A program made the position numbers and the translations under genes. This document shows positions 1,455 to 30,894 of a stretch of 64,000 nt of DNA, in pieces. The DNA comes from the human T2T-CHM13v2.0 reference genome, Homo sapiens. Below the pieces are notes generated by a model. That model ran no database searches. It worked only from the letters and a program-made list of their open reading frames with translations, and was not told the DNA's origin. The stretch lies in assembly GCF_009914755.1 (NCBI RefSeq), contig NC_060935.1; one strand, 5' to 3'. Every line of letters starts with the position of its first letter. Position 1 is the stretch's first letter.

Positions 1455-3170
1455 AAATATACTGGACTCGACCACACCAGACGTTTGAAGATTTGGAAAG
1501 AAAATACCGGAAGAACCTCAGCCTCCTATTTGATGAAAACAGTAAATAATGTAATCCTGGACACGTAGGAACAATTCAGGACTTTCTGGAGCAGGAATAT
1601 GAGGTTTTCATCGAAGAGAGTGTCAACACACCCTACCTGTACTTTGGCAATGTGGATGACCACCTTTCCATAGCTCATGGAGGACATGGACCTTTACATC
1701 AACTACCATCACTTCAGAGAGCCCCTATATTGGTACGCAGTGCCCCAAAACCATAGTTGGCACCTGGAATGCTCAGTCAGGGAGCTTTTCCAGGTAGTTC
1801 TCAGGGTTATGAGGCCTTCCTGTGGCACTAGATGGCCCTCATCGTGCCCACCGTGCTCATGCAGAATGGGATTCCCTTCAATAGCATGAGTCAGGAGGCT
1901 GGAGAGTTCACAGTGACATTTCCCTATGACTACAACACAGGCTTCAACTGCAAAGAGGCCATCAATTTAACCACCCAGGATGGGTAGATTATGGCAATAT
2001 GGCCCCTCAGTGTAGCTGTGGGGAGGACAGGGTGGCCTTTTCCATGGACGCCTTCATGCACATCATGAAACCTGATCATTGTGACCTATGGAAAAGCTAG
2101 CAAGATGGGGCCATTGTGGATCAAAGGGAGCCCAGGGTGCTGGCCAGCCAGGAGCTCATTACCTGGCAGGAGGACATTGTACCCGGACTGAAGCTCCCCT
2201 GGACCTGACTTCTTCTAGGCCTGTGGTCCTGGATGGTGGGACCTACCACTGAGCCCATATGTACAGTTGCAGTTTCCCTGGTTCCCCGTGGCAGCCCAGG
2301 AAACTGATGCCCATCCAAAGGTCATTGACCCCAGAGGCTCCCAAGAACACACCGTGGCCCACCATCTATCTTGGGTCTGTTTGCCCTGGTTCTCTGCCTG
2401 TCAACTGGAAGAGGTGGTCATGGTGGTCTTCTTCAGGAACTAGGAGCTCAGGAGGGGATCCTCTAGTCTCCCACCAAGTGGCACAGCACACAGAGCTCTT
2501 GATCCTGGGGCTTTGCCCCTACTTGGGATGGAACTTTGATAGACAAGCCTGTATCTCTCATGCCTGCATCTCAGTATCCCATCAAGGCTTCCAGGAGCTG
2601 CAGTGCCCCCATCTTCAACCTTTGGAGAGACTTTGGATCTGATGCTTTGATGTGTGCGTATCCGACATCCCCAGACAGTATGACACTGAACCACCCTGAC
2701 TATGTTCCACTGATTCCTCCCAACATCATTATGATGCTGAGAAGATTCTCCAGAGATGCTGCTGGAGAGTGCAAAGCCCCTTGAACCTGGCTGAGGTTGT
2801 AGCAATGGACCATTCTTATACCTCTGGGGTCTTGGCCCCAACTGATGTTGTCAGAATATGCTGGGCCCTGACTCATCTCCTGGGGCTGAAGCAAGACAGT
2901 GCCGCACCTCTGAATTTGGAGCTATGTGCCTCTGATACATTATCTTAATCCTTTGAACCCATGGCTACTGAATATATTGCCAAATGTGGCTGTCCCTCTG
3001 ACCATAACCTAACCCTACTAGCCAAAGAAGGCTCCACCCAAGCACAATTTGAGCCTGGGATTGTCTCAGTCTCTTTTACCTTGAAGAACTAATATATACC
3101 CAAGGCTACCAGAGGCTGTCTCCTGTTTATTAAATTAATTTTTCCTAGTGTGTATCTACCAAGTAAAGAA
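1455..3170 (+). pseudogene. KDM4D/E/F-like pseudogene (JmjN deleted; JmjC, C-tail and 3' end decayed)
   Basis: Colinear with KDM4F from ~10773 ([37 protein letters not shown]). Frameshifts, a TAG in the AWHTE motif, a 12-bp deletion in GFNHGFN. Ends with ATTAAA..tagtgtgtatct like 12989-13017. Confidence 0.92.
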
Positions 3171-6760: not shown

Positions 6761-9329
6761 GTGTACTTTAGGTTTGTGTTTAAATGGCATATTTCCTTGA
6801 GAGAATAAAGATCAATCACCACCCTGCTGAAATTATATTCCTTCTTTGCATGGTTATTCAGTGATGTGAGGAGATTGAAATGGCCATTTGGGAATCTCAG
6901 CTTCCTATGTATGGCATTATTGTTGTGACTCCATTGAAAACATGTTCCTTTGAACACCAGAAGTCATGAGGACAAAAAGCAAACATCTTACATTGGCATG
7001 ATGAATGAGTCCCTGTTTTATGCCTGGATTTACTGGAACCATGCACTCTGGCTCTGAGAGGAACAGTCTCATGTCCAGAGCAATGGTTTCTCACATGCAT
7101 TGCTAGTGGGAATATGACATCATACAGCCCCTTTGAAAAACTGTGTCAGTCTTCTATAAACTTGCACACTCATCTGTCTCTGGCAAATCTCCTTCTAGGT
7201 ATCTGCTCAATTGGTAAGAATGAAGAACTGTGAACAATCCATATATCTCTGAAAAGATGAGTAGAAAAACTATAGTGTATTAAAATATTATTCATCAATT
7301 GAAAGGAGTGAACTGCTGGTGCATGCAACAGGATAGATGATCTCACAAACATCCCATATGGGAAAAGTAGCAAAATCCAAGTGAATACATACTGTATGAT
7401 TCCATTCCTATTCATTCCCAAATCAGGCCATAGTCCCCTGCAATCATAGAACTTAGAAAGTGGTTGCCTCTGGTGGCAAGTTGGGATTGGCTGGAAAGCT
7501 TCTGTCCTGCGAGAATCCTATGGGGCTGTGCTAATGTTCTACATCTTTTATGTGTTGATTACATGGGTGTATATAATTTTTAAAACTCACTAAAGTGGAG
7601 ACCTAAGATCTATGTGTTTTACTGCCTGTATCTTAAACTGGAGAAAAGCAAATAGGAGACAAGACAAGGGCAGCTAGAAAAGTAAGAACCATCTTACTAA
7701 ATTCTAGAAAGCTCAATCTTGGGTTAGCATGCCAGGCAAGTAGTTGTTTACTCTATTTTTTGTTGTTTTTATTGTACCATTATTTTTCACCGTTTCTTTC
7801 TTTTTATGAATGCATTTGATCCTCGGTTGGTTGAATCCACTGCTGCTGAACCCAGAGGATATGGAGGCCTGACTGCCTTCTGTGACCAAGATATCTATTC
7901 ATAGACAGGAGTACATGTGAGCCCCAAGCGCTATCCATGTCCAAGCATTTTCAGAGCAACATTTTTTGTAAGAGGTCAAAAGTAGAAAGGAACTAAATAC
8001 CCATTAAAAACGCAAACATTTATACCATTGAATAAATTACAGCAAGGAAACAAGACAAAGTACAGCTGTACAGAAGAACATAGATGAGGGAAATGCCACA
8101 CAAAAAATACATGAAAATACATAAAACACAATTCTATTTATATTTATATAGGGTCATAACATTTTCAAAATAGACAATATTTTAATTAATTTAATTTGTT
8201 TAGAATTCTTAGGAAAGAGAGCTTTGTCACTTCTCAGCTGTTTGTTTACTTAATCTTTAATTTATATCAGTATGAACTCATAGATATTTATTTCATATTT
8301 AGGATTATAATTCAATTTACATATTTTCTTGCTCAATTTGTTGGAGATTTGGCCATTGGGAATTGTTTTCCTTCTGTCCCACTGGAAGTAACCGCATTTT
8401 TTATTGTGTGTATTTACGGAGTTTTTATTTTCCATGGCTACAAATGCTTTGGGCTCTTTCTGTATATTACTTGCCCAGGTCTAGAAAGTGTTCTTTATCA
8501 ATACTTCCACTTATGTATTTTTTCTTTAAAAAACTATCAGATTTTAGTTTTATTAATCACCTTTTAGTATACATTTTCCCTTTTATCTTTCTATCATTAC
8601 TTCTATCTTTCATTTTCTTCTGCAGAATTTTGTTCCATTTTGTTTTTACTCACTGCTTGAGTTCAAAGTGAAGATCAATAGGATTTTAGAAATGTGCATA
8701 TTAATTTTCAAATAAATATGGATTCAAATAAATTTGGATTCAGGTTTTGTATTGTTGACTTTCAATTTCATTTCATTTTGGCCAGTATATTCATTTAATA
8801 TAATTTTTATTTGATATTTACTTTGTAGTCCTATATTGGTAAATTTATCTATTATAAACGTTACCTATGTACCGAAAAGCATTTCACATTTGCTTTTTAA
8901 TTGTTACAATCTCTATCCTCAAAGTTCTTAAGCTTGTACATATTACTAAACATTAATTTTCTGCTCTACCTTATTGGTTTCTGAAAGGATAATGTTAAAC
9001 ACACACACACACACACAACTCCCAGCACGATTGCAGATTTTACTGTTTGACCTTACAACAACTCTCAGTCTTGGCTTCAGTGTGTCACTGTTGTGTGGTT
9101 AGGTGCATAAAGTTCATCCCTATAATATTTTCCTATGAATTTTTTTTCGTTAACTATAAAATGTCCCTCTTGGATCTTATATATACACTGGATATTAATA
9201 TTGTTACCCTCGGTTTCTTTTAGTATTTATTTAGATTCCCTGTTCCCATAACTTGACTTTTAATCACTTAGCATTGTTATAGGATTTAAATGTAAAACAA
9301 AAGGGAGAGGCACAAACGGGTGGGATGCC

Positions 9330-9400
9330 TAATCTGGACCCAGCCCAGTGATTACATTAGCTGGGCACTGATTGGGTTAGGATGCCGCCCAGGTATAAAG
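9330..9400 (+). promoter_or_regulatory. Predicted KDM4F promoter: two DUX4-type motifs 20 bp apart plus TATA box
   Basis: TGATTACATTA 9349-9359 (one mismatch to TAAYYYAATCA on the reverse strand), TGATTGGGTTA 9369-9379 (perfect, rc TAACCCAATCA), TATAAA 9394-9399. Confidence 0.8.
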
Positions 9401-9491
9401 CCAGGGTCTTTGCAACGTGGGGCTGCATTTGGAGTTCAGCTACCAAGAGGAAACCTTCTCTCTGGGTCCTGGAGTATTTTCATCAGGAATT

Positions 9492-10073
9492 GTGAGTTTT
9501 TGGTGGAAGTTAGGTCATTTTATTTCTCTGTTGGAGCACTTTTTGATATTTGTCCTACTGAGAAAATTATTCTCACTCAAGTTGCTCATAAGTTTCAGTT
9601 AAAATTTTTAAAACATCTCAGCAAGATTTTTAGCTATGCCCCCTAAGTTATCTCAATTGTTTCATTTGTATTTTCTTTTCTCTTCATGCCTATGGCTTTT
9701 TACTTCTCACCATCTTTTTAAAAAGTCAAGTTTTAGCTTTTTGTCATCATTCCTATTGGAGGTTCTGTTTCCTTTTGCAATGGTTTCTGCTTGTGTCTTT
9801 ATTTTCATTGTTTCCTTTGATGTTAATGCATCCAGTTTCTTGAGTGGATTGCTTAATTCATTCCTTTGCAAACTTGATCATTTTCACTCTTAGTTTGATT
9901 AGATGCTGCTCTTTTTCTGTTTTATTATTTGACCTTATATCCTGATGTTAACACAGCATACCCTTTAGTTTAGCTTAATACTAGCTGAGTATTTCTTTTG
10001 TCTGGTTATACATGTATTTTCAAATATTCTGTATTTTGTGTTGTTATTTAGGTTTACTGATTTGATTTCCTAG
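9492..10073 (+). other. Predicted 5'UTR intron of KDM4F
   Basis: Donor tt|GTGAGT at 9492; branch-like tactgat at 10055 and tttgatttccTAG acceptor ending 10073; T-rich body. Splicing removes all upstream ATGs. Confidence 0.6.
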
Positions 10074-10458
10074 AAGAGACGCCCGGGTACAGTGCAGTTA
10101 CCAGCAACTGGGGCACCCAAGCCTGAGAATCAAGAGAAGCCTCACAGTGACACCCCCAACTGAGGAAACTCACAGAGCTGCAGGTGGAGCTGGGACTCCA
10201 GCTGGGGTGCCTGCCCCACTGGGACATATTCTATTTTCTTTGGACAAAAAAATACTGACTACAGCAGAGTCCCCCTGGGAAGTCAGAAGCCTCTGAAAGA
10301 TCTCACTTGTTCAAAAGTTCAAGTGTGAATTACTCCCTCACAGATAAACCAAAGTATTTTGAAAAAACAAAGCAGAGAAAAGAAATTCCTCCCCAGCACT
10401 CTCAGGCATTTAGAGGACACCGAAGAACTTGGGAGTCAGCTGCTTCTTGTGTGCAGCC

Positions 10459-12375
10459 ATGAAGTCTGTGCACTCCAGTCCCCAGAACACGAGTCATACC
10501 ATCATGACGTTTTACCCAACCATGGAAGAATTTGCAGATTTCAACACATATGTTGCTTACATGGAGTCCCAAGGCGCACACCGAGCTGGCCTCGCCAAGG
10601 TAATTCCACCCAAGGAATGGAAAGCCAGACAGATGTATGATGATATTGAAGACATCTTAATAGCCACTCCCCTCCAGCAGGTGACCTCTGGGCAGGGAGG
10701 TGTGTTTACTCAATACCATAAAAAGAAGAAAGCCATGAGGGTGGGGCAGTATCGCCACTTGGCAAACAGTAAAAAATATCAGACTCCGCCACACCAGAAT
10801 TTTGCAGATTTGGAGCAACGATACTGGAAGAGCCACCCCGGTAATCCACCAATTTATGGTGCTGATATCAGCGGCTCCTTATTTGAAGAAAGCACTAAAC
10901 AATGGAACCTAGGACACCTGGGAACAATTCTGGACCTGTTGGAGCAGGAATGTGGGGTTGTCATCGAGGGTGTCAACACACCCTACCTGTACTTTGGCAT
11001 GTGGAAGACCACGTTTGCTTGGCACACGGAGGACATGGACCTTTACAGCATCAACTACCTGCACTTTGGGGAGCCCAAAACTTGGTACGTGGTGCCCCCA
11101 GAACATGGTCAGCGCCTGGAATGCCTGGCCAGGGAGCTCTTCCCAGGCAATTCCCGGGGCTGTGAGGGCTTCCTGCGGCACAAGGTGGCCCTCATCTCGC
11201 CTACAGTTCTCAAAAAGAATGGGATCCCCTTCAATCGCATGACTCAGGAGGCTGGGGAGTTCATGGTGACTTTTCCCTATGGCTACCATGCTGGCTTCAA
11301 TCACGGCTTCAACTGCGCAGAGGCCATCAACTTTGCCACTCCACGATGGATTGATTATGGTAAAGTGGCTTCACAGTGTAGCTGTGGCGAGGCGAGAGTG
11401 ACCTTTTCCATGGATGCCTTCGTGCGCATCCTGCAACCCGAGAGCTATGAGCTCTGGAAACACAGGCAAGACTTGACTGTTGTGGATTACATGGAGCCCA
11501 GGGTTGCAGAAAGCCAAGAGCCGAGCAACTGGAGGGAGGACATAGCACTTAGGAGAGCTGCTCTGGGCCTGAGGCATCTCCGGAACCACATAACCAGCTG
11601 TCCCACACGGACTGTGGCCCCAAGGCTCTGTTACAACCCAAAGGGCGGTGGTACCGATGCTGTGCCTGGATCTGCAATCCAAGCCCTGGAGACGTCAGCC
11701 TGGGTTCTTCCCCCTTCCACTGGAAGGTGGGGTCCTTGTCGTGGCTGTGGTCGTGGTCGAGGTCGTGGTCGAGGCCGTGGTCGTCGTCCTCGAGAACTGG
11801 GGACTGAGGAGACAACTGTTCAGTCTGCAGCTAAGAGGCGCCTCTCAGTGGGGACAGGGAGCAGAGCTCCAGGCCGCAAACCTCAGCTCCAGTTCGCCGA
11901 TGAAGCTTTGACAGACAAACCCGCACCTTTGAGCGGTGGCCTTCCGCATTTTGCAAAGGCTTCTGGCTGCTGTTGTGCCCCTGATCTTCAACCCCTGGGG
12001 CCCCCACTGGATCCTGATGAACCCATGCACCCTGGCCCCTGCCTGCTATCCCTCGACAGCACTGCTAGTAGTCTTCCTCTTGTTGTCCCTATGACTCCTC
12101 CCAGTGTCACTGTGCCTTTGATTACATTGTCCAGGGACACTGGTGGAGACTGGAAATCCCCGGTGAATCTGGCCAAGGTTGTAGCAATGGACCATTCTTA
12201 TGCCTCTAGGGTTCCGGTCCCAACTAAGTTTTCCAGGATCTCCTGGGCCCCTGACTCATCTGCTGGGGCTAAAGCCAGACAGAGATACGCCACTGAATTT
12301 GGAGATATTTTCCTCCAATGCATGATCAATCCTCTGGACCCATGGCCATTGAATATGGTGTCAAATGTCAAGTGA
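10459..12375 (+). CDS. KDM4F: Lysine-specific demethylase 4F (JmjN+JmjC, KDM4D/E-type, no PHD/Tudor), 638 aa, single coding exon
   Basis: gcagccATG at 10459; [10 protein letters not shown] start. Fe ligands H189/E191/H277, 2OG ligands Y133/N199/K207/K242 and Zn ligands C235/H241/C307/C309 are all present. (GR)n tract; long Pro/Ser tail distinguishes it from KDM4E. Confidence 0.93.
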
Positions 12376-12988
12376 TATCTACTTCTTATCCCAACCCCAG
12401 GAATCAGAGAAGATTCCTGCCAAGCACAATTCTGGCCTGGGCCTCTCCACAGTGAAGATTCTTTACCTCCAATAACTGACGAATTTCCAAGGCCCCCAGA
12501 TGCTGTCTCCAATTGTGACAACCAGGGCTCCCAGAGGTCATTGAATTCCCCACCCCAAAGGTTGCCGTAGGATGTTGTAATATCTCTCAGGGACTCTCTG
12601 TCTCCTCCTAATCATTGTGCCTGTGGCCTTCACCATGGCCAGATGCCACAGACAGCACTTGTTGCTTTTGTGCCCTCAGGATACCTCCCTTACAGTGCTA
12701 TGGGTCCAGATCCCACAGTAATTTGGACTCACATTGGATGATGCTGAGAATCTCACTGAATCCCTAATTTTTACCTTCCATTTGGTCCTCTGTTTCTCTG
12801 GCCCTGGATTCCACTGGACATTGCTACAGCCTCAGGGAGTTTTGGGGCTTCTCACAATCCTTCAACTGCAACATGCACTCCACCCCAGGCCACGATCCAC
12901 TGTACATGCACAAAACTAGACCTGTAGACCAACTGAGTTTGCTAGCCATTCATGGCCCCAGAGATATTTTGTAATGTTTTTGATATGT

Positions 12989-26226: not shown

Positions 26227-26526
26227 CAGTTGTCCCTTGATATTCTGCAGGTGGATGGGGTTTGGTCCTTAGTAACCCCTGAGGATTCTGAGGATTTTCA
26301 AGTCCATATATAAAATGGCTTGGTATGCGCATGTAACCTATACGTATTTTCCAACATACTTTAAGTCATCTCTAGATTACTTACATTATGATGAAAATGC
26401 TATGTAAATAATTGTTTACTGTATTATGTTCTATTTATTTTTATTGTTTTTTTTTTCTGAATAATTTCTACCCACAGTTGGCTGAATTCACTGATGCTGA
26501 AGCCAGAGGTTACAGTGGGCTGCCTG
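26227..26526. mobile_element. MER2 DNA transposon (only its right part survives in copy A, 7741-7876)
   Basis: TA-cagttgtccctt...tttaagtcatctctagattactt...gggctgcctg-TA. Confidence 0.8.
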
Positions 26527-27937
26527 TATTCTGTGACAAGGGATCCATTCATACCTAAGAGGACACATGAGCTCCAGTATACATGTCCAAGCATGTTCTG
26601 AGCAACACTGTAAGAGGCCAAAAGTGGAAACAACCCAAGTGCCCATCAACAGCACAAACATTTATACCATTGAATGCCTTACGGCAAGGTAACAGGATCA
26701 AGTACAGCTACATGGAACACATAGATGAGGGAAATAAAACACAAAATACATTAAAATATAAAAAGCACAATTCTATGTATATAAGGTTACATAACATTTT
26801 CAAAATCAGCAACGTTTTAATTAATTTAATTAATTTAGAATTCTCCTGCAGAGGAGTTTTCTCTCTTTTCTCCAATGTGTTAATTTATTTAATCATTTAT
26901 TTACAACAGCACAGATTAATATTTATTTTATATTTTGGAATATGATATAGTAGTATTTTAGTTTGTTCCTTAAATTGTTCAAGATTTGGCCATTGGGAGC
27001 TGTTTTATTGGTTTTTGTACCCCTCTAAAATTACCCCATCAATGCTTTTGTTTGTTTTCTATTTATCACATCCTTATTTTCCAGCACTCCAAGATGCTCT
27101 AGGCCCTTTCTGTATATTTCCTTTCCAGATTTAGAAACTGTATTTCTTCATCAGTATTGCTAGATTGTTTTTTTCTTTAAAAGTGTTAGATTTCAGTTTT
27201 ATTAATCATCTTTTTAAAAAAACATATTGTCCCTTTTATTTGTAATTCTATTTTTATTTTAATGTTTTATTTTTTGTTTTGGTTTTGTTTTACTAATTGC
27301 TTGACTTCAACATAAAAAAAGTTTTAGAAATGTGGTTATTAATTTTCAAGTAAATATGATTGGATTCAGGTTTTTTATTTTTAACCTTCAATATTATTTC
27401 ACTGAGGTCCAGATGTGCTGAATTTATTGACCTATTAAATTTTAATTGACATTTATTTTGTAGTCTTGTATTGGGAAATTCTTCTGTTTTCTATATATTT
27501 TTGGTTGTTGCAGGTTATATGATCAAAATTGTTGTTTGTTGTGCAAATTATTATAGCATTACTAGTTTTGTTCTCTGCACTATTGATTTCTGAGAAAACG
27601 GTGTTACGGGGAAAAAACAAACTTCCATCATGAGTGCAGATTTTTCAGTTTTACCTTATAACTCTCAGTCTTGGCTATGTGTCACTGTTATGTGTTTAGG
27701 TGCGTTAAGTTCATCACTGTAATGTTTTCCTAGTGAATTTTCTTTTCAATAACTATGAAATGTGCTCCTTTGATCCTATCAATACACTGGATATTAATAT
27801 TGTTGCCCTAGGTTTCTTTTGTTTAATATTTGTCTGGATTGCCTGTTCCCATAAATTGACCTTTAATCAGTTAGCTTTGTTCTTAAGATTGGTTTAAAAC
27901 GTAGAATAATAGGGAGGAGCATGGGAGGGTGGGACGT

Positions 27938-28010
27938 CTAATGTAAATCCAGCCCAGTGATTACATTAGCTGGGCGCTGATTAGGTTAGGATGTTGCCCA
28001 GGTACAAGGC
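27938..28010 (+). promoter_or_regulatory. Predicted SRSF8 promoter, paralogous to the KDM4F promoter, with DUX4-type motifs
   Basis: TGATTACATTA 27958-27968, TGATTAGGTTA 27978-27988 (perfect, rc TAACCTAATCA); TATA position changed to TACAAG 28003-28008. Confidence 0.8.
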
Positions 28011-28270
28011 CAGGATCTTCGGGACCTGGCTTCATTTGGAGTTCAGCTACCAAAAGGAAACCTTCCTCTGGGTCCTGGAGTATTTGGCCTGAAATTGGGA
28101 ACTCGGAAGTTGCTGCTCCAGGGCGCTCCCTGCGGAGCTCCGCCGCCCGCCTCTCCGCCCGGCCTTTCCCGGCGTCCCCACGCGGGGCGCAACCGCGAGA
28201 AAGAAACGCAGGTCGCACCGTCAGCGCCCAGAGCAGCGCCAGTTTCCGGGCCCGGGCTGCTCTCGGAGCC

Positions 28271-29119
28271 ATGAGCTGCGGCCGCCCCCCTCCCGACGTG
28301 GACGGCATGATCACCCTCAAGGTGGACAACCTGACCTACCGCACCTCTCCCGACAGCTTGAGGCGCGTGTTCGAGAAGTACGGGCGCGTGGGCGACGTGT
28401 ACATCCCGCGGGAGCCCCACACCAAGGCGCCCCGGGGCTTCGCTTTCGTCCGCTTTCACGACCGGCGCGACGCCCAAGACGCCGAGGCCGCCATGGACGG
28501 GGCGGAGCTGGACGGACGCGAGCTGCGGGTGCAGGTGGCGCGCTATGGCCGCCGGGACCTGCCCCGCAGCCGCCAGGGAGAGCCACGCGGCAGGTCCAGA
28601 GGCGGCGGCTACGGACGGCGGAGCCGCAGCTACGGGCGGCGGAGCCGCAGCCCCAGGCGGCGACACCGCAGCCGATCCCGGGGTCCCAGCTGCTCCAGGT
28701 CCCGCAGCCGATCTCGCTATAGGGGTTCTCGCTATAGCCGGTCTCCCTACAGCCGATCTCCTTACAGCCGGTCGCGCTACAGCCGCTCTCCCTACAGCAG
28801 ATCTCGCTACAGGGAATCTCGCTACGGCGGATCTCACTACAGCTCATCTGGTTACAGTAACTCTCGCTACAGCCGATATCACAGCAGCCGGTCTCACTCG
28901 AAGTCTGGGTCCTCCACTAGCTCTCGCTCTGCATCAACCTCCAAATCGAGCTCTGCGCGACGATCCAAGTCCTCCTCGGTCTCCAGGTCTCGCTCGCGGT
29001 CCAGGTCTTCATCTATGACCAGGAGTCCTCCCCGGGTATCCAAGAGGAAATCCAAGTCAAGGTCGCGATCCAAGAGGCCCCCCAAGTCTCCTGAAGAGGA
29101 AGGACAGATGTCCTCTTAA
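28271..29119 (+). CDS. SRSF8: Serine/arginine-rich splicing factor 8 (SRp46/SFRS2B), intronless SRSF2 retrogene, 282 aa
   Basis: gagccATG; RRM with LKVDNL and RGFAFVRF; RS domain; SRSF2-like termini MSxGRPPPDV..PPKSPEEEG; CpG island. Confidence 0.97.
28712..28891 (+). repeat. Coding 15-bp tandem repeat, 12 units (consensus tctcgctacagccga = SRYSR)
   Basis: Units read directly: tctcgctataggggt, tctcgctatagccgg, tctccctacagccga, tctccttacagccgg, ... Confidence 0.92.
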
Positions 29120-30148
29120 GAAAATGATGCATCAGGAAGCAACGTGATGGAGGACTTGGGGGAAAAGGATCACATACTCAGTCTATGGAAGCAACGTCCC
29201 TGGAAGAAGAGGCTGCCTATTGAAAAGGTTGTGTCACACTTTTCTACCTTTTTGCCAGTTTGAAGCTTTGCATCAGGTGGCAAAATTCATTCTATGTGCC
29301 GTTTTGTTGTTATTCACATTTTATTGTAACTTAGGAGGTGAACGACCTAAGATTACGTTATTGGGTTTGGATATTTGAGGCAAAAATTTATTTTTATTTC
29401 TATAGTGATGACTGTTTTGGTTTGAAATGAACAGATTGGTAACCTAATTTGTGGCCTCCTGACTTTTAAGGAAACGTGTGCAGCCATTACACACAGCCTA
29501 ACGCTGTCAAGACATTGCTTCAACATTGCCTTCATTCCTTAAAAACCTACAAAAGGTGGTGTAAATTAATATGGATAATTTTATTTACCTCCAGGTCTAA
29601 AAGGTAGTGTGACCCAAATTTGTATAAAGATTTTTCATGTGAAAGGACTGGGGTTTTAGCAAACACAGGTCTAATCTCTTTTGTGTTTTTGTGCACCAGG
29701 CCCGGCTGCGTAGCAGTTGAGTGATGCTGGTTAGCTATTAAGGTGGCCTGTTGCAGTGCAGAGTGCTGAGCTGCTTCCTGTTTTCTTCTGATTGCTCCTG
29801 GGGAAAACACGCCTTGTCCTGAAGAACAAATGGCTGTCCAGTTTATTAAAATGCCTGTCAACTGCACTTCCAGTCACCCAGGCCTTGCAGATAAATAATG
29901 GAGCATGCAGTGAGCACATCTAGCTGACGATAATCACACCTTTTCCCCCGTCTTTTCTGAAAAATTGTAAATCTGATCATATCAACATGTATGAACTTAA
30001 AATATGGAGAATGTTATGGAAGAAATAGTTTATAAGTTTGTTAAGTACTTATAACATGGTTTATCTTTTTGATTATTAATTTTTTACGCTAACCATTGTT
30101 TCTGTAGTTAAAATTGTTTTCTTGGTGTTATCTTTTCTCAGAATAAAA
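29120..30148 (+). other. SRSF2-derived 3'UTR of SRSF8, ending in an A-rich tail remnant
   Basis: Paralogous to 66-834; ends ttttctcagaataaaa, after which KDM4-unit intron homology resumes. Confidence 0.85.
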
Positions 30149-30894
30149 TTAGAAACTTTTGATGGAAAGTAGGTTGTTTTATTTTCTGTATGACTTTTGA
30201 ATATTTGTACTTTTGAGAAAATTATTAGCACCAAGTGTTTCTCAAAATATAATTTTTAAAAAATCCTTAATAGGCTTTTAGCTATGTGCTTTATTGTTTT
30301 ATCACAATGCAGTTTATTTGTAGTTTCTCTCTTTTTTCCTCACACCTATGGTTTTTTTACTTCCAAAATTATTTTCAAATAATCCATTTTTGGCTTTCAT
30401 CATTATCCCTACTAGATGTTATGTGTTCTTTTGCAATTGTTTCTGCTTATACCTTTACTAGCAAAGGGAAAAATAACAATTTGGTGTCAATGATCTGGTG
30501 AAAATAGGATTACATTGGAGCCAATTGAATAAATTTATTCTTTCAATCATATGGATCTTCATTAATATTTTTGACTGAATTATCAATTAAAAATATTTCA
30601 TTCCCTTTGTGCAGAAACTGCTAAATCCAGGGTTCGATTCTTGAATGAACTGGCAAGCTGGCTGTGGTCTGTAGATATACATCCCACATTTTGTTGTTAT
30701 AACAGTTAGTAGTTAGTATTGCTTTCATATATAGACTCCAGAATCTAAATTTTACGATAATGACATTTCTTCTGGTCATGACAAATGTAATATTTTACAA
30801 ATATAAATCTACGTAGAATCCAAAGACACACACGGAGCAGTCCTGTCTGAGAAATAAAAAATCAGGACACCCATGGCATCGTAGTAGCCCCTCG

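What the first reader, a model, noticed from the sequence alone, without database searches (positions are those of the whole stretch)
9330..9400. Paired DUX4-type sites exactly 20 bp apart, conserved in both old paralogous promoters
Seen: TGATTACATTA-N9-TGATT(G/A)GGTTA at 9349/9369 and 27958/27978. The block is nearly invariant while the surrounding duplicate is visibly diverged, and the one change in the motifs stays within consensus. The spacing is about two helical turns. KDM4F keeps TATAAA, SRSF8 has TACAAG. The SRSF8 copy also has an inverted ctaatgtaaatc (27938-27949), forming a palindrome with site 1. Known: DUX4 consensus TAAYYYAATCA. Inference: purifying selection on a cooperative DUX enhancer-promoter that is still active at both genes.
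Basis: partly seen in the sequence, partly recalled or inferred. Interest (0 to 1): 0.72.

Follow-up and report, generated by a model that had tools for sequence, protein, structure and literature searches.

The report
Shared DUX4-responsive promoter of KDM4F and SRSF8
Two binding sites for the embryonic activator DUX4 sit just upstream of a TATA box in a small promoter that was copied five times and drives KDM4E, KDM4F and SRSF8; DUX4 control of these genes is largely known, and the shared origin of the promoter is a modest new detail.

Summary
The sequence facts hold. TGATTACATTA-N9-TGATT(G/A)GGTTA lies at 9349/9369 and 27958/27978, and these are the only four exact DUX4-consensus matches in 64 kb. 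The pair lies 14 bp upstream of TATAAA (TACAAG in SRSF8).

The genome holds five copies of this promoter: KDM4E, SRSF8BP, KDM4F, SRSF8 and one on chr7. Four keep both sites; SRSF8BP has lost site 1.

DUX4 binding at the SRSF8 copy is already in print. A published ChIP-seq region equals window 27355-28569, and its best motif is exactly site 2. SRSF8 rose 9.5-fold and KDM4E 532-fold with DUX4. I found nothing linking KDM4F to DUX4.

Excess conservation is only moderate. The sites have the lowest substitution rate, but the first exon is nearly as conserved (scan-corrected p 0.078 with five copies, 0.26 pairwise). The 20-bp spacing is inherited and is not a genome-wide preference, so cooperativity is unsupported.

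New detail: SRSF8 is an SRSF2 retrocopy that landed just past the first-exon splice donor of a KDM4-type unit and took over its DUX4 promoter. The chr7 copy keeps both sites, the TATA box and a 293-aa reading frame.

The parts
7797..9479 (+). Promoter module, KDM4F copy; paralogous to 26448-28085
   Evidence: Self-BLAST 71.7% over 1743 columns. 80.0% to the KDM4E copy upstream of the window.
9330..9333 (+). TAAT half-site, identical in all five copies and 15 nt upstream of site 1
   Evidence: Invariant columns in the five-way alignment.
9349..9359 (-). DUX4 site 1 (TAATGTAATCA on the minus strand), centre about -73 from the predicted start
   Evidence: Identical in 4 of 5 paralogs.
9369..9379 (-). 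DUX4 site 2 (TAACCCAATCA on the minus strand), centre about -53
   Evidence: G in the KDM4-type copies and A in the SRSF8-type copies, both within the consensus.
9394..9399 (+). TATAAA box, 14 bp after site 2
   Evidence: Kept in 4 of 5 copies.
9427..9491 (+). Predicted non-coding exon 1 of KDM4F, starting at the A of CATTTGG 33 bp after the first T of TATAAA (inferred)
   Evidence: Second most conserved block, 0.22 steps per column. No transcript data seen.
9492..9497 (+). GTGAGT, candidate splice donor
   Evidence: Kept in KDM4E and KDM4F; reads GGGAAC or GGGAAT in the three SRSF8-type copies.
10072..10073 (+). AG of the candidate acceptor (tttcctag|aagagac); predicted exon 2 starts at 10074
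   Evidence: Conserved between KDM4E and KDM4F, with higher identity downstream. Inferred.
10459..12375 (+). KDM4F coding sequence
   Evidence: Annotation supplied with the finding. 82.8% to the KDM4E region.
26448..28085 (+). Promoter module, SRSF8 copy
27938..27946 (+). Upstream arm of the 9-nt perfect inverted repeat with 27961-27969
27958..27968 (-). DUX4 site 1, SRSF8 copy
   Evidence: Inside the published DUX4 ChIP-seq region.
27978..27988 (-). DUX4 site 2, SRSF8 copy (TAACCTAATCA)
   Evidence: Best FIMO DUX4 motif of the published ChIP-seq region, positions 624-634 = window 27978-27988.
28003..28008 (+). TACAAG, degraded TATA box (SRSF8 copy only)
28108..30145 (+). Processed retrocopy of SRSF2 (the SRSF8 body, coding 28271-29119)
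   Evidence: Matches the SRSF2 exons on chr17 at 79-87% with both introns missing.
30157..30457 (+). Resumption of homology to KDM4F intron 1 (9498-9801) after the retrocopy
   Evidence: 70.6% over 316 columns.

Best explanation
The block is the core of a compact, TATA-containing, DUX4-responsive promoter that arose once and was then copied. Each 11-bp site fits the published consensus for one DUX4 molecule, in which one homeodomain reads TAAT-type and the other TGAT-type bases. Two DUX4 molecules would bind at about -73 and -53. Through the C-terminal activation domain, which recruits p300/CBP, they would switch on transcription from a start about 30 bp past the TATA box.

In KDM4E and KDM4F a short non-coding first exon would be spliced to the exon holding the reading frame. 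In the SRSF8 lineage a processed SRSF2 retrocopy landed about 15 bp past that exon's splice donor. The donor then decayed, so the DUX4-driven transcript reads straight into the retrocopy: a captured promoter.

A later 29.5-kb tandem duplication gave the KDM4E+SRSF8BP and KDM4F+SRSF8 units. A recent 2.9-kb copy of SRSF8BP went to chr7.

The 20-bp spacing is inherited. The two sites most likely act additively or synergistically as independent sites, not through a spacing-dependent complex.

Shown: motifs, paralogy, copy number, intron loss, and (from print) DUX4 binding at the SRSF8 copy and induction of SRSF8 and KDM4E. Inferred: the transcription start, the splicing, the insertion point, and DUX4 response of KDM4F and the chr7 copy.
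For: - **Motifs.** The only four exact TAAYBBAATCA matches in 64 kb are these two pairs. The consensus, the homeodomain half-sites and p300/CBP recruitment are as stated in passages of PMC12376486.
- **Copy number.** The genome holds five copies of the core, and four of the five have both sites.
- **Published binding.** Supplementary Table 4A of PMC5409219 lists a region bound by DUX4 in two data sets and by mouse Dux (peak values 37, 87 and 18), named SFRS2B. Its sequence starts at window 27355, and its best DUX4 motif, TAACCTAATCA on the minus strand at 624-634, is window 27978-27988. The table records 'Multiple' sites.
- **Published induction.** In the same supplement KDM4E rose 532-fold (padj 1.4e-230) and SRSF8 9.5-fold (padj 3.3e-51). 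qPCR gave SRSF8 5.9-fold with DUX4. SRSF8 changed after 3 h of DUX4. KDM4E sits in the DUX4-target group that peaks at the 4- to 8-cell stage.
- **Substitution rates over five copies.** Sites 0.09 steps per column, spacer 0.22, exon 1 0.22, distal flank 0.55.
- **Where the changes fall.** The one change between gene types in a site falls on a degenerate consensus position. The one change at a core position (TAA to CAA) is in the pseudogene SRSF8BP.
- **Retrocopy.** SRSF2 exons match with both introns absent. Homology to KDM4F stops at 28085 and resumes at 30157. The donor GTGAGT is intact in the KDM4 types and broken in the SRSF8 types.
Against: - RefSeq places the SRSF8 transcription starts at 27921 and 27963. 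That is upstream of or inside site 1, not at the start I predict near 28034.
- SRSF8 has a substantial baseline without DUX4 (248-343 counts) and a degraded TATA box. Much of its expression is therefore not driven this way.
- RefSeq marks 27939-28018 as a 'silencer' (annotation supplied with the finding).
- No row for the KDM4E or KDM4F promoter turned up among the ChIP-seq rows I could search. That file is cut and lists only subsets of peaks.
- No data link KDM4F to DUX4.
- After correcting for scanning, excess conservation is weak (p 0.078 with five copies; 0.26 pairwise).
- The retrocopy has no poly(A) tract at its 3' junction, and the target-site duplication is only imperfect.
Confidence: 0.8

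Rival explanations
1. Cooperative, spacing-dependent DUX4 element: two DUX4 molecules contact each other or a common cofactor only at about two helical turns, and selection preserves the 20-bp spacing itself.
For: The spacing is unchanged in all five copies. Twenty bp is about 1.9 turns, so both sites face roughly the same side of the helix.
Against: All five copies descend from one ancestor, so this is a single observation, and a 31-bp stretch without indels is unremarkable. Genome-wide there are 37 direct pairs of TGATTRVRTTA and TGATTRRRTTA within 30 nt (the reversed-pattern control gave 20). Five have a 9-nt spacer, and four of those are this family. Among the other 33, one has a 9-nt spacer where about 1.1 is expected, and the rest spread from 1 to 29 nt. 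The one variable spacer column carries three different bases.
Confidence: 0.12
2. Generic core-promoter conservation: the block is conserved as part of a roughly 140-bp promoter plus first exon. Only site 2 matters for DUX4, and site 1 is a passenger.
For: Exon 1 is as conserved as the block (30 of 31 against 29 of 31). The longest stretch at 90% identity or more runs 9340-9410. The published best motif is site 2. SRSF8BP lost site 1.
Against: Both sites have the same lowest rate, 0.09 steps per column, lower than the TATA box (0.33) and the stretch from TATA box to start (0.33). Site 1 is letter-identical in the four copies other than the pseudogene. The published table records 'Multiple' DUX4 sites in the region.
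Confidence: 0.2
3. The sites are kept mainly for other paired-like homeobox factors of the cleavage-stage embryo (DUXA, DUXB or others named from recall), with DUX4 only one of several readers.
For: Mouse Dux also occupies the SRSF8 region in human cells. A TAAT half-site upstream is conserved in all five copies. Kdm4dl/KDM4E is called the most consistent DUX-family target in mouse, human and cattle.
Against: Mouse Dux binds but does not induce SRSF8. DUX4 alone suffices for 532-fold induction of KDM4E in myoblasts. Nothing I saw shows other factors binding here.
Confidence: 0.15
4. Gene conversion between the tandem paralogs, not selection, keeps the block alike.
For: The copies are close tandem paralogs, and local identity rises over 9340-9480.
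Against: Positions that differ consistently between the KDM4 type and the SRSF8 type lie within about 10 nt on both sides of the block and inside site 2 (CTGGAC against GTAAAC or GTAAAT, G against A, GCC/GTT; and the five-way alignment). A conversion tract would have to be under about 45 bp.
Confidence: 0.04
5. The promoter is an old retroelement LTR, as for many DUX4-bound promoters.
For: DUX4 binding to retroelement LTRs is a known source of promoters (the title of PMC3836709, and passages of PMC12376486, which name MaLRs and ERVs).
Against: Whole-genome searches with 9300-9480 and 8900-9500 find only the five paralogs plus one 36-nt match. An LTR too diverged for this search cannot be excluded, and no repeat library was available.
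Confidence: 0.08

Closest known systems
Direct DUX4 target promoters of cleavage-stage genes (ZSCAN4, KDM4E, PRAMEF and others)
   Same: Consensus TAAYBBAATCA sites close to the start. DUX4 binding and strong induction in myoblasts, with a transient 4- to 8-cell peak. The SRSF8 copy is itself a published DUX4 ChIP-seq region.
   Different: The two-site layout at -73 and -53 before a TATA box, and the fact that KDM4E, KDM4F, SRSF8, SRSF8BP and a chr7 copy share one promoter by descent, were not in any text I could search. That ZSCAN4 carries several clustered sites is recalled, not checked.
DUX4-bound retroelement (MaLR/ERVL LTR) promoters
   Same: A DUX4 site creates a promoter and first exon for a downstream gene (passages of PMC12376486; title of PMC3836709).
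   Different: This module is not a dispersed repeat at the sensitivity available, with five copies only. It spread by segmental duplication, not transposition.
Retrogenes that recruit a host promoter (general class); SRSF8/SRp46 as an expressed SRSF2 retrocopy
   Same: An intronless copy of SRSF2 is expressed from upstream sequence it did not bring with it. That SRp46 was described in 1998 as the product of a retropseudogene rests on recall and on the citation of Soret et al., 1998 seen; the word retropseudogene occurs once in that paper in the listing.
   Different: Here the donor of the promoter can be named: a KDM4E/F-type unit, with the insertion about 15 bp past its exon-1 donor. I found no paper stating this (only one of the 20 papers listed, out of 264 found, holds the word SRSF8, and it does not discuss the promoter).
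Clusters of direct DUX4 motifs elsewhere in the genome
   Same: Several consensus sites within tens of bp, for example four at chr19:6380927-6381018 and pairs on chr19 at 58.86 and 59.34 Mb.
   Different: Their spacers are 2, 3, 11, 18 and 19 nt, so there is no common phasing. I did not establish which genes they belong to.

Membership tests
Direct DUX4 target promoter | Consensus DUX4 motif TAAYBBAATCA near the transcription start | tested here: met
   Four exact matches, all in the two pairs, 14 bp upstream of the TATA box.
Direct DUX4 target promoter | DUX4 occupancy in ChIP-seq (SRSF8 copy) | tested here: met
   The published region maps to window 27355-28569, with its best motif at 27978-27988. 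This rests on a paper's supplement, not on reads I mapped.
Direct DUX4 target promoter | DUX4 occupancy in ChIP-seq (KDM4F copy) | not testable with these tools
   No row near the expected coordinates in the searchable part of the supplement, which is cut and lists subsets only.
Direct DUX4 target promoter | Induction of the gene when DUX4 is expressed | tested here: inconclusive
   SRSF8 9.5-fold and KDM4E 532-fold. KDM4F has 0 occurrences in that supplement, and no paper links it to DUX4.
Direct DUX4 target promoter | Response lost when the sites are mutated | not testable with these tools
   Needs reporter assays.
Spacing-dependent cooperative composite element | The same spacing recurs at independent loci or is preferred genome-wide | tested here: not met
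   Outside this family 1 of 33 direct pairs has a 9-nt spacer, as chance gives.
Retroelement-derived DUX4 promoter | The sequence belongs to a dispersed repeat family | tested here: not met
   Only five paralogs in the genome. Old, highly diverged repeats could be missed.
Processed retrogene with captured promoter (SRSF8) | Loss of the parent gene's introns | tested here: met
   SRSF2 exon matches abut in SRSF8, with both introns absent.
Processed retrogene with captured promoter (SRSF8) | Poly(A) tail and target-site duplication at the junctions | tested here: inconclusive
   There is no A-tract after AATAAA. Both junctions carry a diverged copy of a GGTGGAAGTT-like stretch that is single in KDM4F.
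Processed retrogene with captured promoter (SRSF8) | The upstream promoter is homologous to the promoter of an unrelated host gene | tested here: met
   26448-28085 aligns with 7797-9479 upstream of KDM4F, and homology resumes after the insert.

The most novel reading that the evidence does not exclude
One ancient DUX-responsive promoter wires two different gene types, an H3K9 demethylase (KDM4E, KDM4F) and an SR splicing factor, into the human cleavage-stage programme. The splicing factor joined because an SRSF2 retrocopy fell into the first intron of a KDM4-type unit. On this reading KDM4F and the chr7 SRSF8-like copy (both sites, TATAAA and a 293-aa frame intact) are unrecognised DUX4 targets, and the chr7 copy is a working gene rather than a pseudogene.
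Probability: 0.45. Interest if true: 0.45.

Novelty: new member of a known kind. Interest (0 to 1): 0.3.

Why it matters
DUX4 starts part of human embryonic genome activation, and its misexpression causes facioscapulohumeral dystrophy. KDM4E and SRSF8 are already on its target lists, so the main point is not new.

What this adds is a sequence-level explanation of why an SR splicing factor responds to DUX4: it borrowed the promoter of a KDM4E-like gene. It also gives two testable predictions: KDM4F and a chr7 SRSF8-like copy should respond too.

It is also a caution. Identical spacing among paralogs is inheritance and does not show cooperativity.

Tried and rejected
- **Broad pair search.** The genome-wide search with the broad pair pattern gave 195 matches. 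The first 100 listed were mostly satellite-like TGATTCCATTA arrays, so it was useless for spacing. I replaced it with a narrower pattern.
- **Misaligned five-way alignment.** A five-way alignment reaching 1600 bp upstream misaligned, because the chr7 homology starts only about 350 bp upstream and SRSF8BP carries an insertion. I dropped its identities and used a 481-column alignment instead.
- **Oldest unit as a decay control.** In the oldest unit, before LOC100420801, homology stops about 60 bp before site 1 and the core promoter is simply missing. It says nothing about selection.
- **Papers not held.** Two papers that probably show DUX4 binding at KDM4E, requested under PMC ids I recalled, are not held. 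That point rests on other sources.
- **Young et al. 2013.** The main text has no mention of KDM4E, SRSF8 or SFRS2B.
- **Gene conversion and LTR origin.** Both were considered and judged unlikely (see rivals).

Full report
**1. The observation**

The letters and coordinates are right.
- TGATTACATTA lies at 9349-9359 and TGATTGGGTTA at 9369-9379.
- TGATTACATTA lies at 27958-27968 and TGATTAGGTTA at 27978-27988.
- Read on the minus strand, all four fit TAAYBBAATCA. A review gives this as the ChIP-seq-derived DUX4 site, with one homeodomain reading TAAT and the other TGAT (passages of PMC12376486).
- These four are the only exact matches in the 64-kb window: 1.02 expected, and 3 of 100 shuffles reach four.
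- With one mismatch allowed the window is at chance, 29 found against 24.6 expected, and no near-site lies beside the pairs.
- TATAAA (9394-9399) follows site 2 by 14 bp. The SRSF8 copy reads TACAAG (28003-28008).
- The 'palindrome' is a perfect 9-nt inverted repeat, 27938-27946 with 27961-27969. Its upstream arm is not a consensus site.

**2. What surrounds it**

The two sites belong to a 1.7-kb module, 7797-9479, that aligns with 26448-28085 at 71.7%. Homology to KDM4F stops at 28085 and resumes at 30157-30457, which aligns with 9498-9801 at 70.6%.

The stretch in between, about 28108-30145, matches the exons of SRSF2 on chr17 at 79-87% with both introns missing. It is a processed retrocopy.

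The insertion point lies about 15 bp past a GTGAGT (9492-9497). KDM4E and KDM4F keep this GTGAGT, and the three SRSF8-type copies have changed it to GGGAAC or GGGAAT. Both junctions carry a diverged copy of a GGTGGAAGTT-like stretch that is single in KDM4F. That may be a target-site duplication. No poly(A) tract remains.

I infer the following gene structure:
- The ancestral unit was promoter, a short non-coding exon (predicted 9427-9491), an intron, then the KDM4 coding exon.
- A candidate acceptor, tttcctag|aag at 10072-10073, is conserved between KDM4E and KDM4F.
- The retrocopy took over this promoter.

**3. Copies elsewhere**

The whole genome holds five copies of the core and nothing else. 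A 181-nt query gave 5 matches. A 601-nt query at E up to 10 gave the same five plus one 36-nt match.

The five copies are:

| Copy | Place | State of the sites |
|---|---|---|
| KDM4F | this window | both intact |
| KDM4E | about -20166 in window terms, 6.5 kb before the annotated gene because of a 5.7-kb insertion in the presumed intron | both intact |
| SRSF8BP | about -1686 | site 1 reads TGATTACATTG, a change at a core TAA position |
| SRSF8 | this window | both intact |
| chr7 copy | chr7:47213930 | both intact |

So four of the five keep both sites.

A 29.5-kb tandem duplication at 80-83% identity relates the KDM4E+SRSF8BP unit to the KDM4F+SRSF8 unit. The chr7 copy is a 2.9-kb piece 96.6% identical to SRSF8BP.

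The order of events that fits these identities is:
1. promoter duplication (72%);
2. retrocopy insertion;
3. the 29.5-kb duplication (about 82%);
4. the chr7 copy (96.6%).

**4. Is the block more conserved than its flanks?**

*Five copies.* I counted parsimony steps on the tree ((KDM4F,KDM4E),(SRSF8,(SRSF8BP,chr7))) over 481 columns. There were 214 steps, or 0.445 per column.

| Region | Steps per column |
|---|---|
| Distal flank 9024-9300 | 0.55 |
| 9301-9339 | 0.49 |
| 9 nt before site 1 | 0.11 |
| Site 1 | 0.09 |
| Spacer | 0.22 |
| Site 2 | 0.09 |
| 9380-9393 | 0.21 |
| TATA box | 0.33 |
| TATA box to start | 0.33 |
| Exon 1 | 0.22 |

The 31-nt block has 4 steps where 13.8 are expected. 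The fixed-position permutation p is 0.0007, but the p for any 31-column window being that low is 0.078.

*The two window copies alone.* The block is 29 of 31 identical, while exon-1 windows reach 30 of 31. The scan-corrected p is 0.26, or 0.88 against the proximal background of 79.5% identity.

So the sites are the slowest-evolving positions, but the evidence for selection on them specifically is moderate, not strong.

Two small points fit selection. The only change between gene types within a site falls on a degenerate consensus position. The only change at a core position is in the pseudogene.

Gene conversion is unlikely, because type-specific differences flank the block within about 10 nt on both sides.

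**5. Is the spacing meaningful?**

All five copies inherit it, so it is one observation. Genome-wide, direct pairs of TGATTRVRTTA and TGATTRRRTTA within 30 nt number 37, against 20 for the reversed-pattern control. Five have a 9-nt spacer. Four of those are this family and one is on chr15. The remaining 32 spread from 1 to 29 nt. I see no preferred phasing, so cooperativity is unsupported. It is also untested.

**6. What is already in print**

*PMC5409219 (passages and the supplement, searched by term).* SFRS2B/SRSF8 was bound by DUX4 and by mouse Dux in ChIP-seq and was previously known as a DUX4-upregulated gene.
- Supplementary Table 4A lists hg19 chr11:94799475-94800689 with peak values 18, 37 and 87.
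- Its best DUX4 motif is TAACCTAATCA on the minus strand at 624-634, and it records 'Multiple' sites.
- The printed sequence starts at window 27355, which puts that motif at 27978-27988, exactly site 2.
- RNA-seq in the same supplement: KDM4E 532-fold, SRSF8 9.5-fold (baseline 248-343 counts), KDM4D 4.4-fold.
- qPCR: SRSF8 5.9-fold with DUX4, and no significant rise with mouse Dux.

*Other passages.*
- SRSF8 changes within 3 h of DUX4 induction (bioRxiv 2021.05.04.442407).
- SRSF8 phosphorylation rises within 2 h of DUX4 induction (PMC10655719).
- SRSF8 appears in two tables of up-regulated genes (PMC5323140).
- KDM4E is among DUX4 targets that peak at the 4- to 8-cell stage (PMC6341076).
- The KDM4E promoter is hypomethylated in FSHD myoblasts (PMC12776069).
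- Kdm4dl/KDM4E is called the most consistent DUX-family target in mouse, human and cattle (bioRxiv 2023.04.10.536281).
- KDM4F and KDM4E are both up in arrested human embryos (PMC9246109).

*Not found.*
- A paper holding DUX4, KDM4E and SRSF8 together other than one gene list.
- Any link of KDM4F to DUX4 (the 20 papers that hold the word KDM4F were seen as a listing only).
- Any account of where the SRSF8 promoter came from.

The library lacks most subscription journals, and two likely key papers were not held.

**7. Points against a simple picture**

- RefSeq starts SRSF8 transcripts at 27921 and 27963, upstream of the TATA-like element and inside site 1.
- SRSF8 is expressed without DUX4.
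- RefSeq marks 27939-28018 as a silencer.

SRSF8 therefore probably has a constitutive start, perhaps helped by the GC-rich 5' end brought in by the retrocopy, plus a DUX4-inducible component.

**8. Verdict**

This is a real DUX4-responsive promoter, already documented at SRSF8 and implied at KDM4E. KDM4F and the chr7 copy are predicted new members. The shared descent of the promoter and its capture by a retrocopy appear to be new, though of modest weight. The cooperative-spacing idea is not supported.

Noticed in passing
L009+L010 (chr7:47213578-47216484 in the genome); reading frame from chr7:47214243: The chr7 copy of SRSF8BP (2.9 kb, 96.6% identical) keeps both DUX4 sites, TATAAA and a full 293-aa SRSF8-like frame with only in-frame indels. 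SRSF8BP itself stops at 234 aa. dN/dS against SRSF8 is 0.44. The symbol SRSF8CP occurs in one paper's gene list, but I could not tie it to this place.
   Followed up: partly
window 1518-3123: A KDM4-like fragment, 72-77% identical to KDM4F 10868-12510, is not in the gene table supplied. It is the decayed KDM4 body that once followed the SRSF8BP promoter unit.
   Followed up: partly
upstream of the window, about -19583 to -13892 (L006-L007): KDM4E has about 5.7 kb extra between its promoter and its coding exon compared with KDM4F, including a local duplicate (-19579..-19152 with -14364..-13903, 89%). The DUX4 promoter of KDM4E therefore lies 6.5 kb before the annotated gene start.
   Followed up: partly
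window 9358-9366 / 9387-9395 and 27967-27975 / 27996-28004: A second inverted repeat, TAGCTGGGC / GCCCAGGTA (8 of 9 complementary), brackets site 2 in both copies. Together with CCCAGC before site 1 this gives three GCCCAG-type motifs about 20 bp apart. Its meaning is unknown, and it may be a trace of an old 20-bp tandem duplication.
   Followed up: no
window 28271-29119 against the chr7 frame: Synonymous divergence is very uneven: 0.06 in the RNA-recognition-motif part against 0.33 in the arginine/serine-rich part. This could reflect gene conversion, constraint on the GC-rich 5' end, or alignment slippage in the repeats.
   Followed up: no
genome chr15:25641973-25642003: The only pair outside this family with the same 9-nt spacer: TGATTAGGTTA twice.
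   Followed up: no
genome chr19:6380927-6381018: Four direct DUX4-type sites within 92 bp, with spacers of 19, 18 and 11 nt. I did not identify the gene.
   Followed up: no
upstream of the window, about -28297 to -27165 (L006): A sixth, older copy of the distal promoter module (66-70% identical) precedes LOC100420801 but lacks the core with the DUX4 sites.
   Followed up: partly
genome-wide: Most close pairs of the broad DUX4 motif lie in pericentromeric satellite arrays of TGATTCCATTA-type units. This agrees with the published DUX4 binding to HSATII (passages of PMC3836709).
   Followed up: no
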